Source: Minisyncoccia bacterium | GTDB lineage: Bacteria; Patescibacteriota; Minisyncoccia; Phycocordibacterales; UBA9973 | Reading direction: 5' to 3' | DNA length: 64,000 bases | Assembly: GCA_039809265.1 (NCBI GenBank) | Contig: JBDHUR010000003.1 | Location: 15,274-79,273 of the forward strand | Shown: piece after piece, positions 4,780-53,439 of the stretch | Position numbering within the stretch: the first letter of the stretch is position 1 | Layout of the letters: every line of letters starts with the position of its first letter | The notes under the pieces: generated by a model | Seen by the model: only the letters and a program-made list of their open reading frames with translations | Told to the model about the DNA's origin: nothing | The model's database searches: none | Made by a program: the position numbers and the translations under genes

Positions 4780-5214
4780 ATGGGAAAAAAGAGAATTATA
4801 ACTAAAGATGGCCAGTCAGGTGAAGGGCAAAATGCTTCGCGCGGTGCTGCAAAAACTCCTAAGAAGAAGATCACTTCTGCGACTTTACATGTGGAAGCAA
4901 CTTTCAACAATACCAAAGCTGTTGTTTCTGATAAACAAGGCAACACTCTTTTCTGGTCTTCAGCCGGTATGCTTGGTTTCCGTGGTGCAAAGAAGGGTAC
5001 TCCTTTTGCTGCAGGAAAAGTGGGTGAAGTCCTTGGAGACAAAGCCTATGCTTTGGGGATAAAAGATGTTGATGCCGTCGTTAAGGGTGTCGGCTCTGGT
5101 CGCGAGCCCACTATCCGAGCATTTATTGGAAAGGGTTTTGAGCTTACAGGCGTGCGTGATGTGACTCCAGTCCCTCACAATGGCCCAAAGCCGAAAAAGC
5201 CTCGTCGAGTATAG
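4780..5214 (+). CDS. rpsK: 30S ribosomal protein S11
   Basis: 144 aa; conserved S11 sequence (e.g. GFRGAKKGTPFAA). Confidence 0.9.
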   Translation: MGKKRIITKDGQSGEGQNASRGAAKTPKKKITSATLHVEATFNNTKAVVSDKQGNTLFWSSAGMLGFRGAKKGTPFAAGKVGEVLGDKAYALGIKDVDAVVKGVGSGREPTIRAFIGKGFELTGVRDVTPVPHNGPKPKKPRRV

Positions 5215-7239: not shown

Positions 7240-7258
7240 TTTAAAGAAATAAGGTAGT

Positions 7259-7615
7259 ATGACAAGCGTTATGAAACACACAATAGATGCAAGCGGACAA
7301 TCTTTGGGACGAGTAGCACAAGCTGCCGCTGTGATTCTTATGGGCAAGAATGACCCGTCTTATGTTGCAAACAAAGTTGCTAATGTGAAGGTGGCTATTG
7401 TTAATGCATCCAAGTTGAAAATATCTGAAAAGAAGAAAACTACTGTGTTCTATGAACGCTACAGTGGCTACCCAGGTGGTTTGACCAAGGAGCGCATGGA
7501 TATGCGTGCCGGTAGACGCGGATACAGAGTGTTACTAGAGGATGCTGTCTATGGCATGATACCATCAAATAAGCTCCGTGCTCGAATTATGAAAAATCTT
7601 ACAGTTACAGAATAA
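7259..7615 (+). CDS. rplM: 50S ribosomal protein L13
   Basis: 118 aa; conserved L13 sequence, followed by rpsI as usual. Confidence 0.9.
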   Translation: MTSVMKHTIDASGQSLGRVAQAAAVILMGKNDPSYVANKVANVKVAIVNASKLKISEKKKTTVFYERYSGYPGGLTKERMDMRAGRRGYRVLLEDAVYGMIPSNKLRARIMKNLTVTE

Positions 7616-7616
7616 T

Positions 7617-8024
7617 ATGGAAAAAACAAAAACAAAAAAATATACAGAGACTGTTGGCCGAAGGAAAACTTCAAGTGCCCGAGTGCGTGTCCTAGAAGCT
7701 TCAAAAAGCTCTTTCATTGTGAATGAAAAAGATGCTCATGATTACTTTCCAACAAGTGAATTGAAGAATATTATTCATGGTCCTGTTGCCGAGCTTGGAC
7801 GAGAAGGCAAGTTTGAAATAACTGTAAAAGTAAAAGGTGGTGGTGTGCACTCTCAAGCAGAAGCTGTGCGTCATGGAGTTTCTAGGGCGCTTGTAGAGAT
7901 GAATGAAGAAGACAGAACTACTCTAAAGAAAGCTGGTTTCCTAAAACGTGATCCGCGTATCAAAGAACGCCGTAAGTTTGGTTTGAAAAAAGCTCGTAAA
8001 TCCCCACAATGGAGTAAACGTTAA
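7617..8024 (+). CDS. rpsI: 30S ribosomal protein S9
   Basis: 135 aa; GRRKTSSARVRV..., C-terminal KKARKSPQWSKR. Confidence 0.9.
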   Translation: MEKTKTKKYTETVGRRKTSSARVRVLEASKSSFIVNEKDAHDYFPTSELKNIIHGPVAELGREGKFEITVKVKGGGVHSQAEAVRHGVSRALVEMNEEDRTTLKKAGFLKRDPRIKERRKFGLKKARKSPQWSKR

Positions 8025-8031
8025 GTTACTA

Positions 8032-8063
8032 CCTCCACACATAATGTGTGGAGGTTTAGTTTT
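8032..8063 (+). terminator. rho-independent terminator after rpsI
   Basis: Perfect 10 bp stem cctccacaca / tgtgtggagg with taa loop, followed by tttagtttt. Confidence 0.6.
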
Positions 8064-8240
8064 AAACAAACCTCTTCTTGTATCTTAAATAAAACATTGT
8101 GATATAATAACCATATAGAACTTTCTAACGATTTCTTCAATAAACGCCTTGAGTTAAAGAAGAAACTAAAGGATAAAGAAGGCAGATCATATGCAGAGAT
8201 AAAAAAAGAAAAACAACCACATCTTCATAGCGAAGATGTT

Positions 8241-9404
8241 TTGTCTGAGGTTGACGCTCTTATAGGTGAAGAAAATGACTTGCTGCTCTCTAACATAGAT
8301 GGTATGTACGAATATGCAAAAGAAGAAACCGGTAGTCATACACTGCCAGAGTTGTTAAAACTTGCCAGAGAAGAAAAAGAAAAATCAAAAAGAACTCAAA
8401 ATATAATACACCATGTTAAAACACTAGATACTCTAGAAGAAAAGATTGAAAAATTACGATACAATTTTCGCAGTAAAAACACAGGCACACACATAGATGA
8501 CAAAAGACTACTAAGCTGGGATAAAGCTGAAGAAAAAATAAACAATGAGCGTCTTAAATTGTCCGAGAATAAAGAGACATCGCACATTTCTCGTATGGTA
8601 GAACTTCTAAAGTACAAAGAGCAGGCGAAAGAAGGGTTTATAGAAACACCATCTAGGACAGATAAAAAGAAAGAGATTGTAAAACTCATGCGAGAATCTA
8701 AGAAAGGTATTTTCTTAGAAGGTAGCTCTGGTACAGGTAAAACACAGCTTTTACGACATATTGTAAAAAGTTTAGAAGGATATGAGCCAGAAATATTTGC
8801 TTCTACTGACCAATCTCGCGAATCAGATATCGTTGGCAAGACTGGATTAGATGTTAAAGATGGAGCAACTATTTCAAAGTTTAATGAAGGAATGCTTGTC
8901 CGTTCCATAACAGAAGGCCGTAAAGTTATTTTCGATGAATTTAATAATATGGAAAAAGGTTTGCGCTTATTATTAAAGCGTTACTTTGCCCTTAAACCAG
9001 GAGACACTTTTACTGTACCGCAAGATGGTAATACGATTTATACGGTAAAAGATGGTTTTAGAATATTAGCCACAGGCAACCTCCCAGGACCACATCACAC
9101 AGATCGTAACCCTCTCGGAGATGAAGAAACTAGAGAGTTTGAAATGCCTCATCTTGATCAAATGCCAGCAAATGAGATATACGACACACTTCTTGTTGCT
9201 TCTATGCGTGAAGATAAATCTGTTCCATATAGCAAAGACGAGGCTGAAACAACTCTTGCGAACTTAGCTAGGGCAATAAATGAAGCACACATTGCATATA
9301 CAGAAGGCAAGTCAGATTTCTTTGCAAGCGGAAATGTCCTGAAGGGTAAAAATCAAAGCCTAAAAAAGCAGTCCTTGACCCAGCACAATATCTTTCTTGG
9401 GTAG
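8241..9404 (+). CDS. AAA+ ATPase, AAA_5 (MoxR/McrB/dynein-related) type, with charged coiled-coil N-terminal region; start codon uncertain; possibly frameshift-joined to the next ORF
   Basis: Walker A GSSGTGKT, Walker B VIFDEF, sensor-1-like ILATGN. Frame is open from 8103 with no ATG until 8302. ORF-track start is TTG at 8241. Confidence 0.6.
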   Translation: MSEVDALIGEENDLLLSNIDGMYEYAKEETGSHTLPELLKLAREEKEKSKRTQNIIHHVKTLDTLEEKIEKLRYNFRSKNTGTHIDDKRLLSWDKAEEKINNERLKLSENKETSHISRMVELLKYKEQAKEGFIETPSRTDKKKEIVKLMRESKKGIFLEGSSGTGKTQLLRHIVKSLEGYEPEIFASTDQSRESDIVGKTGLDVKDGATISKFNEGMLVRSITEGRKVIFDEFNNMEKGLRLLLKRYFALKPGDTFTVPQDGNTIYTVKDGFRILATGNLPGPHHTDRNPLGDEETREFEMPHLDQMPANEIYDTLLVASMREDKSVPYSKDEAETTLANLARAINEAHIAYTEGKSDFFASGNVLKGKNQSLKKQSLTQHNIFLG

Positions 9405-9433
9405 AAGGGTATAAAAATCAAACAAAACAATCA

Positions 9434-10399
9434 TTGCCGGAATATTTATGTGAGAAAATAGCCTTTTTTGCCGGCAATGGAGATTTTCCAGAAAACGACA
9501 GAAATCTATTATTTAAGATCTTTCAAAGGTTTGGCTTTATGAATGGAGCTACTAACATATCTCGCTTCGGTGTTACCGAAGAAGAAGCAGAAGCACTTGT
9601 TTGGCAGTCAAAACTCGTATATGAAAAACCATCACTCCGCAACTTACCAATTGAAGAAATATCAAAACTTGACCCATTTAAAATGCGACAGATCAAAGAA
9701 GATAAGTTGATTGAAGACTTTATTGCTCAAAACCAGACAAAAGAACAGAAAGAAATATTGAATAACTTTTCTGAACAAGGGCAAATTTTAACTAAAAAGA
9801 AAAAAGAGAAGTTCACACAAGAAATCGACACCTTCTGGCGAGATACATACACAAATGACTGGTCATTGAACAATCAAGACTTATCAAAAGTAAAATTCAC
9901 TCCAGAATTCTTAAAGCCAGAAGAAATAAAATGGCAAGATATAGCTAAAGCAAAAGATGATCCAAAAGAATTTGGTAAATATATTACAAACCCAGAAACA
10001 GCTTTACTTGATTATGAGAAACTAGGTAAACCAGAGATATATAATCCAAATGAAGATATAGATTTGGATAAATGGTTAGAGAAGAATAAACTAAAGAAAA
10101 ACCCCGCATCTGTTATGCAATACGTTGCAGAGAAATTCAGTAAAACATACTATCTTCCTGGAATAGAGTATCAAAAATACCTATTTGAAAACCAGAAAAA
10201 GAAAGGAGTAATACCTGAAGAATTAAAAGATGGTAATTGGTACTACTTTCCAGGTGCGTCTTTCCGCGGCTCAGATGGCAGTTGGTGCGTGCCATTTGGC
10301 AGCTGGAACTCTAGTGGTTCGTTTTGGGAGCGCAGTGGTAATTGGACTAGTCTTGGCTGGAATGACCACGAGCGTGTTCTGCTCCTCGGGAAGAAATAG
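9434..10399 (+). CDS. hypothetical protein with Trp/Gly-rich C-terminus (possibly the C-terminal part of the preceding AAA+ protein)
   Basis: 321 aa ORF with only a TTG start and no RBS. The same frame is coding-like upstream to 9350. C-terminal GNWYYFPGASFRGSDGSWCVPFGSWNSSGSFWERSGNWTSLGWNDHE. Confidence 0.4.
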   Translation: MPEYLCEKIAFFAGNGDFPENDRNLLFKIFQRFGFMNGATNISRFGVTEEEAEALVWQSKLVYEKPSLRNLPIEEISKLDPFKMRQIKEDKLIEDFIAQNQTKEQKEILNNFSEQGQILTKKKKEKFTQEIDTFWRDTYTNDWSLNNQDLSKVKFTPEFLKPEEIKWQDIAKAKDDPKEFGKYITNPETALLDYEKLGKPEIYNPNEDIDLDKWLEKNKLKKNPASVMQYVAEKFSKTYYLPGIEYQKYLFENQKKKGVIPEELKDGNWYYFPGASFRGSDGSWCVPFGSWNSSGSFWERSGNWTSLGWNDHERVLLLGKK

Positions 10400-10431
10400 T
10401 ACATTGAGAATTGGTATATTGTGTATGAATT

Positions 10432-10497
10432 GACTCCGTATGTCTTTGCTAGAGCAAAGACATACGGAGTCTTCCATCAGCCGCAGGCTGATGGAAG
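10432..10497. repeat. two adjacent perfect palindromes (40 bp and 27 bp) without a U-tract
   Basis: gactccgtatgtctttgct-ag-agcaaagacatacggagtc, then cttccatcagcc-gca-ggctgatggaag. Confidence 0.6.
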
Positions 10498-10501
10498 AGG
10501 G

Positions 10502-10530
10502 TTGACAAAAGACGAAGGTGGTGATAAAAT
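10502..10530 (+). promoter_or_regulatory. consensus sigma70 promoter (TTGACA-17-TAAAAT)
   Basis: Perfect -35 TTGACA at 10502-10507, 17 nt spacer, -10 TAAAAT at 10525-10530, 25 nt upstream of the ATG at 10556. Confidence 0.5.
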
Positions 10531-10555
10531 AAGGCGAAATTAAAAATTAATAATT

Positions 10556-11158
10556 ATGTTTGAACAAAAAAACCACTCAATTTCTGAGTATGATTTAATC
10601 AAAGAGCTTTATGAAAAGATTAAACCTATTTTATTAAAAAATGACGGTTATACTTTTACAGAAGCTGAAACTCAAATGTTAAACCAACTTTTCTATTTTT
10701 TTGAAAATAGTCCGTTTTTCCCATCGAAAATTATTGTAGATGTGCTAACTCATGAAAATCTTAAAAAAGAACTTGCCACCAGGGTCCTTCTTGCAAAAGG
10801 GGTAGATAGGAAAAGCTTCACTAAAATATTAAAAGATGTTGATTTTGGTAAAATTTCTAAACCAGTTGGATTTTTCCAGAGGCTTGTTTTTACTAAAAAT
10901 AGTCAATTCCCGCAATCTAATATGAGATATATTTTTGATAAAGCACGCGAATTTGCTAATGAAGTAGAATTTATAAATATGTTACATACTATTATAGATA
11001 GGCATGATCATGTAAATCTTGAAACATTTAAACATATATTTAGAAATGAAGATAAAACATTTGCAATGGGCGTAAGGATTTTATTCAATAAAAAAAAGGG
11101 CTATCAAGGGCTTATTAGTAAAATAAAAAGTCATGAAATTTATTCGCAATATGTTTAA
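10556..11158 (+). CDS. hypothetical protein (AT-rich orphan gene)
   Basis: 200 aa ORF, markedly AT-rich codon usage, own promoter and terminator. No recognisable motif. Confidence 0.45.
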   Translation: MFEQKNHSISEYDLIKELYEKIKPILLKNDGYTFTEAETQMLNQLFYFFENSPFFPSKIIVDVLTHENLKKELATRVLLAKGVDRKSFTKILKDVDFGKISKPVGFFQRLVFTKNSQFPQSNMRYIFDKAREFANEVEFINMLHTIIDRHDHVNLETFKHIFRNEDKTFAMGVRILFNKKKGYQGLISKIKSHEIYSQYV

Positions 11159-11817: not shown

Positions 11818-12339
11818 TTATTTTCCAAAAGTTTCAAACAAGACTTTTTCGGTTTCAATGTCAAGCGAGTCTGTTGTTAAAATCATGATTTCAGTCGTTA
11901 ATCCTAGATCATTTTTAATATTTGTAAACAGGTGCTCAAAAGGGTATGGGGAAATCCATGCAGAATTTTTAAGACAGATAAATCCGGCCTTTTTTAATAG
12001 ATAACGGAGACTTTCACGTTCGTTTTTGCGGGCCTCTGGCAGGTCTAGCAGTACCACTCGCCATTTGCCATCCCATGCGGCTGGTACAGGCATAGTGCCA
12101 TCTGTTAGCTCCAGTGAAGCCAGCTTTTTCTTGCCAACCGGCGTAATACGCAAATAATGCCCTTGTGGAGAGGCAAATTCCTCGGCAAGGCCATTTTCCA
12201 CCATGCCACGTACAGCGCGGTTTATAGCGTATTTTGACGCTTTTTCTTGCCCTTTATCCACAAGCTCGGCTGTTTTTACCACCTTTTTGCGTCCAAGGGC
12301 TCGGAGTATGCTATGTTGTGGATTTTTCCTGCTTGACAT
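11818..12339 (-). CDS. PaaX-family-like winged-helix transcriptional regulator (putative)
   Basis: 173 aa; N-terminal wHTH-like segment, C-terminal WDGKWRVVLLDLPEARKNERESLRYLLKKAGFICLKNSAWISP resembling the PaaX C-domain. Convergent with grpE. Confidence 0.35.
   Translation of the reverse strand: MSSRKNPQHSILRALGRKKVVKTAELVDKGQEKASKYAINRAVRGMVENGLAEEFASPQGHYLRITPVGKKKLASLELTDGTMPVPAAWDGKWRVVLLDLPEARKNERESLRYLLKKAGFICLKNSAWISPYPFEHLFTNIKNDLGLTTEIMILTTDSLDIETEKVLFETFGK

Positions 12340-51785: not shown

Positions 51786-53439
<1,654 letters not shown>

What the first reader, a model, noticed from the sequence alone, without database searches (positions are those of the whole stretch)
8241..10399. 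AAA+ (AAA_5-type) ATPase with coiled-coil N-region, apparently joined to a Trp/Gly-rich C-terminal module; accessory insertion between the ribosomal-protein block and grpE
The sequence shows Walker A GSSGTGKT, Walker B VIFDEF and sensor-1-like ILATGN, typical of the AAA_5 (MoxR/McrB/dynein-related) clade. The downstream ORF has no ATG and no RBS. It ends in a striking repeat-like tail, GNWYYFPGASFRGSDGSWCVPFGSWNSSGSFWERSGNWTSLGWNDHE. There is no VWA/MIDAS partner as expected for MoxR, and no McrC-like nuclease. An AAA_5 ATPase with this N-terminal coiled coil and C-terminal Trp-rich module is not a configuration I recognise. The location between rpsI and grpE, and a start codon that is itself unclear (open frame from 8103, first ATG at 8302), suggest an accessory or defence-type element.
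Basis: partly seen in the sequence, partly recalled or inferred. Interest (0 to 1): 0.7.

Follow-up and report, generated by a model that had tools for sequence, protein, structure and literature searches.

The report
Broken, orphaned DGR target gene
The two reading frames are one gene, a midasin/MoxR-like ATPase fused to a hypervariable binding domain that a diversity-generating retroelement rewrites; this architecture is already known as common in CPR bacteria, and here it is split by a real one-base deletion and has no retroelement nearby.

Summary
The two ORFs are one gene, split by a 1-nt deletion at 9367/9368. All homologues are single ORFs of 569-903 aa that read LKKAVLDP across the junction. 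The same split occurs on at least 23 contigs from independent assemblies, so it is not an assembly error.

The tail is the variable region (VR, about 10251-10384) of a diversity-generating retroelement (DGR) target. Five homologous loci carry a template repeat 250-400 bp downstream whose mismatches fall almost only on template adenines, and they also carry Avd and reverse transcriptase (RT) genes. Among five strains of the window's own lineage, the VR varies only at NNC/NNT codons. These sites coincide with adenines of the homologues' templates (odds ratio 33, p = 3e-13).

The literature already describes AAA-ATPase plus C-type-lectin as the commonest DGR target architecture in CPR bacteria. 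This is therefore a new, probably inactivated, member of a known kind. Interest is low to moderate.

The parts
8103..8240 (+). In-frame upstream extension of ORF1 with no ATG, GTG or TTG. It encodes the N-terminal motif FFNKRLxLKK...G-SY that is conserved at the start of homologues P0002-P0007.
   Evidence: Translation and alignment. Relatives L001/L002 have a 103-bp deletion of 8115-8217. A small hairpin at 8219-8239 lies just before the TTG.
8241..9404 (+). ORF1 (387 aa from TTG): coiled-coil N-region plus the AAA_5 ATPase and lid. The last 11 codons (9369-9401) are out of frame, followed by TAG at 9402-9404.
   Evidence: AAA_5, E = 7e-12; the family profile hits Midasin/Rea1 (E about 1e-28), NorQ, CobS and CbbQ. 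Foldseek matches NorQ/CbbQ with TM-score 0.73-0.79.
8721..8744 (+). Walker A, GSSGTGKT.
   Evidence: G207, G210, G212, K213 and T214 are invariant in alignment A1.
8925..8942 (+). Walker B, VIFDEF.
   Evidence: I276-N281 are invariant.
9063..9080 (+). Sensor-1 strand, ILATGN. The invariant Arg335 and Arg344 follow at 9105 and 9132.
9362..9368 (+). Frameshift site. A 1-nt deletion relative to the intact relatives (AAAAAAGG became AAAAAAG) leaves A_AAA_AAG in the ORF1 frame. A -1 slip here would restore the conserved ...LKK-AVLDP...
   Evidence: The heptamer is not conserved in other homologues. There is no stimulatory structure (z = 0.04).
9368..10399 (+). Continuation of the gene in the -1 frame (ORF listing ORF2 is 9434..10399). 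It holds the conserved AVLDP / FPExDRNLLFKIF middle region and the C-terminal module.
   Evidence: The exact 321-aa product is on 23 contigs.
9743..10396 (+). C-terminal module of 218 aa. It also occurs as stand-alone proteins of 200-310 aa and fused to a different AAA_5 ATPase. It is a probable divergent C-type-lectin fold and bears the VR.
10251..10384 (+). DGR variable region (VR): an invariant scaffold (TGG, GTGCC, GGC, CGC...) interspersed with NNC/NNT codons. The 3' boundary falls after CGTGTTCTGCTC.
   Evidence: 45 variable sites among 5 strains coincide with adenines of the L003 and L027 template repeats (OR 33-34, p about 1e-12 to 3e-13); omega is 1.47 here against 0.07-0.14 in the ATPase and middle segments.
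10432..10496 (+). Two adjacent perfect hairpins (18-bp stem at 10432-10471; 11-bp stem at 10472-10496), starting 33 nt after the stop codon and with no T-run. They may be a DGR target-site hairpin or a transcript-end structure.
   Evidence: z = -11. L001 and L028 keep a hairpin at the same place with a completely different stem sequence.

Best explanation
Positions 8103/8241-10399 are one gene for a cytoplasmic protein of about 720-765 aa. It has a helical N-region, a midasin/MoxR-class AAA+ (AAA_5) ATPase, a conserved helical middle region, and a C-terminal module of about 220 aa. The last 45 or so codons of that module are the variable region (VR) of a diversity-generating retroelement (DGR).

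In complete versions of the system, seen at homologous loci, four elements accompany the gene: a template repeat (TR), an Avd gene, a reverse transcriptase (RT) and often a VWA-domain partner. The RT copies TR RNA while misreading adenines, and the cDNA overwrites the VR. This randomises the AAY-templated codons that form the ligand-binding surface.

By inference, the hypervariable domain acts as a ligand sensor or binder coupled to a hexameric ATPase, as in MoxR-VWA systems.

The window's copy is an orphan. It has no TR, RT, Avd or VWA gene within 64 kb. It has lost a canonical start for the conserved N-terminus. A genuine 1-nt deletion at 9367/9368 splits it. Its VR is frozen across many samples. 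It is most likely an inactivated relic, or at best a crippled copy, of a DGR target. That target was diversified earlier in the history of this lineage by a template located elsewhere in the genome.

Shown: gene unity, the reality of the frameshift, family membership, the DGR nature of the VR, and the ATPase class. Inferred: the sensor-ATPase mechanism, the remote template, and the pseudogene status.
For: One gene: all homologues are single ORFs spanning the junction. There is a 1-nt gap against L001/L002.

Real frameshift: the same split is found on 23 contigs, and the junction string is in all 10 fetched loci. It is also in L028, which has a different 3' end.

DGR family: VR/TR pairs show adenine-specific mismatches in L003 (12/14), L004/L009 (12/17), L005/6 (21/22), L007/8 (12/12) and L027 (18/18). 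An RT with the GNLTSQ motif and bAvd genes are present at these loci.

The window's VR: at least 8 distinct VRs sit on near-identical backbones. Variable sites coincide with TR adenines (OR 33, p = 3e-13). Omega is 1.47 in the VR against 0.07-0.14 in the ATPase and middle segments, and VR dS (0.20) is far below that of the adjacent gene body (about 1).

ATPase class.

VWA partners in homologous loci.

No TM segment.

Literature.
Against: No TR, RT or Avd in the window, and none found by pattern scans of three public collections. A cognate template in this genome is therefore unproven.

Pseudogene status is not proven. The frameshifted allele is abundant and is present in two haplotypes. Both halves show strong purifying selection against the intact allele, although that mostly reflects history before the frameshift. 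A_AAA_AAG in frame could allow -1 slippage.

No experiment exists for any member of this family.
Confidence: 0.85

Rival explanations
1. The frameshift is decoded. Ribosomes slip -1 on A_AAA_AAG (9362-9368) and make some full-length protein alongside an ATPase-only 387-aa product. This would be either adventitious 'correction' of the indel or a dnaX-like two-product arrangement.
For: The heptamer is in exact register, and a -1 slip restores the conserved LKK|AVLDP. A-AAA-AAG is the dnaX slippery sequence, and AAA-AAA runs can rescue single-nucleotide deletions in E. coli (abstracts of PMC1851650 and PMC5009743). The frameshifted allele is widespread and occurs in two haplotypes.
Against: The heptamer follows automatically from deleting one G from AAAAAAGG, which is the sequence in the intact relatives. 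It is not conserved in other homologues. There is no downstream structure (z = 0.04) and no well-spaced SD-like element. The tRNA-Lys repertoire of the organism is unknown, since the window holds only tRNA-Ile.
Confidence: 0.13
2. The split yields two working proteins: an ATPase (ORF1) and a separately translated C-terminal variable protein (ORF2 from TTG 9434 or ATG 9539). This would resemble the stand-alone versions of the module.
For: The C-terminal module exists as stand-alone proteins of 200-310 aa, including a 262-aa paralogue in sister strains. Some gene callers start ORF2 at the ATG (286-aa P0161 and P0164).
Against: No Shine-Dalgarno-like sequence lies before either start. The break cuts through the invariant AVLDP / FPExDR middle region that all fused homologues keep contiguous with the ATPase. 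ORF1 ends in 11 out-of-frame residues.
Confidence: 0.15
3. The tail is simply a fast-evolving or recombining low-complexity region, unrelated to a retroelement. The protein would then be a novel AAA_5 defence ATPase with a new W-rich domain.
For: No TR, RT or Avd in the 64-kb window. The gene body itself is a recombination mosaic. There is no Pfam model for the module.
Against: Orthologous tails in five other loci have adenine-mismatched TRs plus Avd and RT. Variable sites in this lineage match those adenines (p about 1e-12 to 3e-13) and are NNC/NNT codons in a fixed scaffold. PADLOC gives only generic P-loop hits.
Confidence: 0.03

Closest known systems
CPR DGR target proteins with an AAA ATPase fused to a CLec-type variable domain (Paul et al. 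2017 as summarised in PMC10907252; 'UVR4'/Midasin class of Wu et al. 2018, PMC5758913)
   Same: Midasin/AAA_5-like ATPase at the N-terminal side, a C-terminal VR, CPR hosts, no signal peptide or TM segment, and the VR outside the known Pfam CLec models. The homologous loci have the canonical target-TR-Avd-RT order.
   Different: The window copy has no TR, Avd or RT within 64 kb, is frameshifted, lacks a canonical start for the conserved N-terminus, and sits between rpsI and grpE. I could not compare it directly with the UVR4 alignment because the supplement is not held.
MoxR-class AAA+ ATPases with VWA partners (NorQ-NorD, CbbQ-CbbO, CobS-CobT)
   Same: They are the best structural matches of the ATPase (TM-score 0.73-0.79). 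Walker A/B, sensor 1 and the Arg residues are conserved. Homologous loci encode an adjacent VWA protein of 650-700 aa (VWA E = 1e-9; CobT_C E = 3.8e-15).
   Different: About 160 aa of coiled-coil N-region and about 340 aa of C-terminal extension carrying a hypermutated domain. There is no VWA gene in the window. The VWA partners carry an N-terminal HExxH motif in L005 and L027.
Mtd (Bordetella phage BPP-1, 1yu0) and TvpA (Treponema denticola, 2y3c), the structurally solved DGR variable proteins
DGR-diversified STAND NTPase and MoxR-VWA 'ternary' conflict systems of multicellular bacteria (PMC10907252; PMC7159879)
   Same: An NTPase coupled to a DGR-diversified CLec 'sensor', a predicted cytoplasmic location, and a VWA component.
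   Different: The NTPase class differs (AAA_5, not STAND). Here the CLec is fused to the MoxR-like ATPase itself. No effector domain was identified. The CPR RTs form a separate clade, according to the paper.
dnaX -1 programmed frameshift (A_AAA_AAG)
   Same: An identical slippery heptamer in the zero frame, and a shorter product if no slip occurs.
   Different: No conserved heptamer across homologues, no SD or stem-loop stimulators, and the site arose by a recent 1-nt deletion.

Membership tests
DGR target (variable) protein | Homology to proteins whose C-terminal VR has a cognate TR with adenine-specific mismatches | tested here: met
   P0002, P0003, P0005, P0010 and the L027 target: VR/TR pairs with 12/14, 12/12, 12/17, 21/22 and 18/18 mismatches at TR adenines. 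The window tail aligns to their VRs.
DGR target (variable) protein | Variation confined to positions templated by TR adenines (AAY codons) | tested here: met
   Five strain VRs have 45 variable sites, 36 of them at codon positions 1-2. They coincide with adenines of the L003 and L027 TRs (OR 33 and 34, p = 3e-13 and 1e-12). Omega is 1.47.
DGR target (variable) protein | A cognate TR in the same genome | tested here: inconclusive
   None in the 64-kb window or in the flanks of relatives. Pattern scans of the genome, metagenome and viral collections found nothing, not even the window's own VR, so this genome is absent from them. The low VR dS (0.20 against about 1) suggests a shared remote TR.
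DGR target (variable) protein | DGR reverse transcriptase and Avd nearby | tested here: not met
   There is no RT or Avd in the window: motif scan and tblastn with RT and Avd queries. The single weak hit is antisense to atpD.
DGR target (variable) protein | VR displayed on a C-type-lectin (or Ig) fold | tested here: inconclusive
DGR target (variable) protein | IMH-type 3' boundary and a downstream hairpin | tested here: inconclusive
   Homology between the two target paralogues stops exactly after CGTGTTCTGCTC. Strong hairpins lie at 10432-10496, but their role was not tested, and the spacing of 48 nt from the VR end is longer than I recall for BPP-1 (from my own knowledge).
AAA+ ATPase, AAA_5 / MoxR-midasin-dynein clade | Pfam AAA_5 above the gathering score, with Walker A, Walker B, sensor 1 and Arg residues present | tested here: met
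   46 bits against 22. GxxGxGKT, hhhhDE, the N of ATGN, and R335/R344 are invariant in the family. Midasin profile hit E about 1e-28. NorQ/CbbQ TM-score 0.73-0.79.
MoxR-VWA system | An adjacent VWA/MIDAS-domain partner | tested here: not met
   tblastn with the VWA partners of L005, L007 and L027 finds none in the window. The partner is present next to the homologues in L005/6, L007, L010 and L027.
McrBC-type restriction | A McrC nuclease partner and an N-terminal DNA-binding domain | tested here: not met
   The neighbours are rpsI, a 200-aa unknown, grpE, a PaaX_M protein and dnaK. McrB appears only as a distant fold match (rank 47).
Programmed -1 ribosomal frameshift site | A slippery heptamer in frame, conserved among homologues, with stimulatory elements | tested here: not met
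   The heptamer is in frame, but it is not conserved and no structure is present.

The most novel reading that the evidence does not exclude
A CPR bacterium keeps a remote, trans-acting DGR that rewrites two dispersed targets: this ATPase fusion next to rpsI, and a 262-aa stand-alone paralogue next to rpoD. The frameshifted allele stays in use because ribosomes slip -1 on A_AAA_AAG. The result would be an ATPase-only product and a full-length sensor-ATPase from one gene. Wu et al. 2018 found remote targets only outside the CPR DGRs, so this would be unusual for CPR. A recoded DGR target has not, to my knowledge, been described.
Probability: 0.08. Interest if true: 0.6.

Novelty: new member of a known kind. 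Interest (0 to 1): 0.3.

Why it matters
The finding turns an apparently unrecognised 'AAA_5 plus W-rich module' into a recognisable object: the commonest class of DGR target in CPR bacteria. It adds some detail to that class.

- The C-terminal module has no Pfam model but models at pLDDT 92, and it travels between different ATPases and stand-alone genes.
- Homologous loci couple the ATPase to a VWA partner (with an HExxH motif in L005 and L027), which points to a MoxR-VWA-type machine with a hypermutable sensor.
- The window lineage shows what happens when a target is separated from its retroelement: a frozen VR, a lost start codon, a frameshift and allele swapping.

None of this overturns current understanding. 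Its value is mainly correct annotation, plus a possible natural case for studying orphan or remote DGR targets.

Tried and rejected
1. I searched for the template repeat with blastn of the VR against the window and against relatives' loci. I also ran IUPAC pattern scans of genome contigs, metagenome contigs (twice) and viral contigs. All were negative. Those collections do not contain even the window's own VR, so the negatives say nothing about the rest of this genome.

2. I searched for an RT or Avd in the window. The one weak hit, at 51927-52034, is antisense to atpD.

3. I tried to find the lineage's RT through a protein search with the L003 RT. It returned 7,966 CPR RTs, all about 60-70% identical, and none could be assigned to this strain. 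The one locus I followed (L027) turned out to be a different, complete DGR.

4. I searched for a TR-derived ORF in the protein database using a VR-to-Asn query. No such ORF was found.

5. Programmed frameshift: the heptamer is not conserved and there is no structure.

6. Sequencing error: rejected, because 23 independent contigs carry the split.

7. Alternative genetic code: rejected by inspection. The neighbouring ribosomal, rpoA and dnaK genes are intact under table 11.

8. Defence-island context: PADLOC and PHROGs give only generic P-loop matches.

9. Rfam: nothing beyond chance hairpin hits.

10. Paul et al. 2017 (PMC5436926) and the Wu et al. supplements are not held, so I could not compare directly with their sequences.
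Full report
**What is in the sequence**

After the rpsI stop and its terminator hairpin (8031-8055), a frame opens at 8103 and runs to TAG at 9402-9404. Its first canonical start is TTG at 8241, and its first ATG is at 8304. A second frame, shifted by -1, is open from 9350 to TAG at 10397-10399. Walker A is at 8721-8744, Walker B at 8925-8942 and the sensor-1 strand at 9063-9080. Pfam AAA_5 is hit at 46 bits against a cutoff of 22.

**One gene, really broken**

A search with the conceptually joined protein found ten homologues of 569-903 aa. All are single ORFs, and all keep the motif L-x-K-A-V-L-D-P across the join.

- The closest homologue, P0001 (86% identity), lies in the same place (rpoA-rplQ-rplM-rpsI-gene) on two Logan contigs.
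- Its DNA reads CTAAAAAAGGCAGTC where the window reads CTAAAAAA-GCAGTC. The window therefore lacks one base at 9367/9368.
- This is not an assembly error. The exact 321-aa ORF2 product is on 23 contigs from ENA, Logan and NCBI assemblies. All ten loci fetched show the 387 + 321 aa split and the same junction string.
- A JGI contig (L028) has the same frameshift on a backbone that is 100% identical up to 10186, but it carries a different 3' end.

**What the tail is**

Five homologous loci from other lineages have a direct repeat of the gene's last 110-130 nt, placed 250-400 nt downstream. The mismatches fall almost only on adenines of the downstream copy.

| Locus | Mismatches at template adenines |
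|---|---|
| L003 | 12 of 14 |
| L004/L009 | 12 of 17 |
| L005/L006 | 21 of 22 |
| L007/L008 | 12 of 12 |
| L027 | 18 of 18 |

These loci also carry bAvd genes and a reverse transcriptase with the DGR hallmark GNLTSQ. These proteins are therefore targets of diversity-generating retroelements, and the Trp/Gly-rich tail is the variable region.

**The window's own VR**

- Proteins in the same 90% cluster, and sister loci, give at least eight different tails on otherwise near-identical backbones.
- At the DNA level, five strains share an invariant scaffold interrupted by NNC/NNT codons. Homology between the two kinds of target gene stops exactly after CGTGTTCTGCTC.
- The 45 variable sites coincide with adenines in the verified templates of L003 and L027 (odds ratios 33 and 34, p = 3e-13 and 1e-12).
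- Between the window and L001, omega is 1.47 in the VR against 0.07 in the ATPase and 0.14 in the middle region. Synonymous divergence in the VR (0.20) is far below that of the adjacent gene body (about 1). This is what is expected if both VRs were copied from nearly the same template (the numbers are small).

**What is missing here**

The window has no template repeat. It has no RT or Avd; the only weak hit is antisense to atpD. It has no VWA gene. Relatives with the same synteny lack these elements as well. Pattern scans of the three public DNA collections found nothing, not even the window's own VR, so they are uninformative about the rest of this genome. The VR is identical on all 23 contigs, so this strain's copy is not visibly diversifying.

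**The protein**

- ATPase: the family profile hits Rea1/Midasin AAA modules (E about 1e-28), then NorQ, CobS and CbbQ. The AF2 model superposes on NorQ/CbbQ at TM-score 0.73-0.79. The catalytic residues are invariant.
- Location: there is no hydrophobic segment, so the protein is probably cytoplasmic.
- C-terminal module (9743-10396): it has no Pfam or PDB sequence match. It forms a well-conserved family that also occurs as stand-alone proteins of 200-310 aa, and it is fused to a quite different AAA_5 ATPase in L027.
- Partner: in L005/6, L007, L010 and L027 the ATPase gene is next to a 650-700 aa protein with a C-terminal VWA domain. L005 and L027 also have an HExxH motif in the N-terminal part. 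This fits a MoxR-VWA type of machine.

**How it most likely works**

In complete systems, the RT copies TR RNA with adenine-specific errors and the cDNA replaces the VR. This randomises the AAY-templated residues of the C-terminal binding surface. That step is established DGR biology, and the genomic signature is shown here for the homologues. By inference, the variable domain recognises a changing ligand and the AAA+ ring, possibly with the VWA partner, transduces or acts on that binding. Doré et al. suggest the same for CPR AAA-CLec targets (PMC10907252).

**Status of the window copy**

The window gene has lost that context and is split. I consider four outcomes.

| Outcome | Estimated probability | Main points |
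|---|---|---|
| Inactivated relic | about 0.55 | No DGR or VWA context, lost start codon, frameshift, frozen VR |
| Two separately working halves | about 0.15 | Stand-alone forms of the module exist, but there is no RBS and the break cuts the invariant middle region |
| Partial rescue by -1 slippage on A_AAA_AAG | about 0.13 | The heptamer is in register, but it is an automatic by-product of the deletion, is not conserved and has no stimulator |
| Unresolved | remainder | |

**Comparison with what is known**

Wu et al. 2018 list CPR targets with an unclassified VR ('UVR4') whose N-terminal part matches the Midasin AAA domain (PMC5758913). Doré et al. [quoted passage not shown] 2017. Roux et al. 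2021 note that CPR targets usually lack recognisable domains and predict new CLec variants there (PMC8144416). The finding is thus a new, degenerate member of a known kind.

**Verdict**

The finding is correctly explained as an orphaned, frameshifted DGR target. Novelty: new member of a known kind. Interest: 0.3.

Noticed in passing
window 8640-10537, compared with L001: The flanking genes are 99-100% identical between the window and L001 (5251-7250 and 10538-11010). The gene body is only about 80% identical (dS about 1), while its first 400 nt are 99% identical. This looks like a recombination mosaic or allele replacement centred on the target gene. rplM and rpsI (7251-8043) are also patchy, at 85-97%.
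   Followed up: partly
window 8103-8240; L001 and L002: The conserved N-terminal motif FFNKRLxLKK is encoded upstream of the TTG, with no canonical start codon. ATA at 8115 could be a mutated ATG. Relatives L001/L002 have a 103-bp deletion of exactly 8115-8217. Both alleles therefore seem to have lost the ancestral N-terminus in different ways.
   Followed up: partly
window 10432-10471; L001 about 5090-5130; L028: An 18-bp perfect hairpin lies downstream of the stop. In L001 and L028 a 17-bp hairpin with an entirely different stem sequence sits at the same position. The second hairpin (10472-10496) and everything after it are identical. The stand-alone paralogue (L025) has yet another hairpin, followed by a T-run.
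   Followed up: partly
L025/L026 1065-1853; L024: Sister strains carry a second, 262-aa stand-alone target (C-terminal module plus VR, with a different 3' end, RVLLYKRNDS) next to rpoD-dnaG-rpoC. In L024 the rpsI-linked ATPase gene carries this paralogue's 3' end and neighbours, which implies recombination between the two targets. The paralogue is not in the window.
   Followed up: partly
L028 (JGI 3300045332), aligned to window 9250-10600: L028 is a recombinant haplotype. The window backbone, including the frameshift, is 100% identical up to 10186. After that come an L001-like pre-VR region and hairpin, with a third VR sequence.
   Followed up: yes
L007 883-2916; L005 6181-8136; L010 8135-10120; L027 798-2894: VWA-domain proteins of 650-700 aa are encoded next to the ATPase-CLec targets. 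L005, L007 and L010 are mutually 30-33% identical. L027 is CobT_C-like. L005 and L027 have an N-terminal HExxH motif. L027 also has a 141-aa gene between the VWA and ATPase genes.
   Followed up: partly
L004 2681-2792; L009 2545-2656: A template repeat is present downstream of the target, but there is no Avd or RT in the following 7 kb (GDH, ParB and others). This is another locus where the cassette is incomplete.
   Followed up: no
L003 2696-2950; L027 5311-5574: Gene callers annotate the template repeats as small Asn-rich ORFs (84 and 87 aa, ...GNWNVPYGNWN...). This is a useful handle for finding TRs in protein databases.
   Followed up: partly
window 11818-12339 (-): A 173-aa protein with a PaaX_M (Cas2-like) domain (E = 5e-21) and a winged-helix-like N-terminus sits between grpE and dnaK. 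I recall that hrcA often sits at this position, and this protein may be a substitute heat-shock regulator.
   Followed up: no
window 10556-11158 (+); promoter-like site 10502-10530: A 200-aa ORF with no family match (only DUF2659, below threshold) lies between the target gene and grpE. It is 100% conserved in relatives and is preceded by a near-consensus TTGACA-17-TG-TAAAAT promoter-like site.
   Followed up: no
L024 (GCA_044220935.1): In this assembly rpoB, rpoC and the ATPase gene are all split into two calls. This suggests an error-prone assembly, so its extra break in the ATPase gene should not be taken as biological.
   Followed up: no
L025 1-1064: About 1 kb upstream of the stand-alone paralogue has no ORF in any frame. 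It could be an RNA gene or a degraded region. I did not examine it.
   Followed up: no
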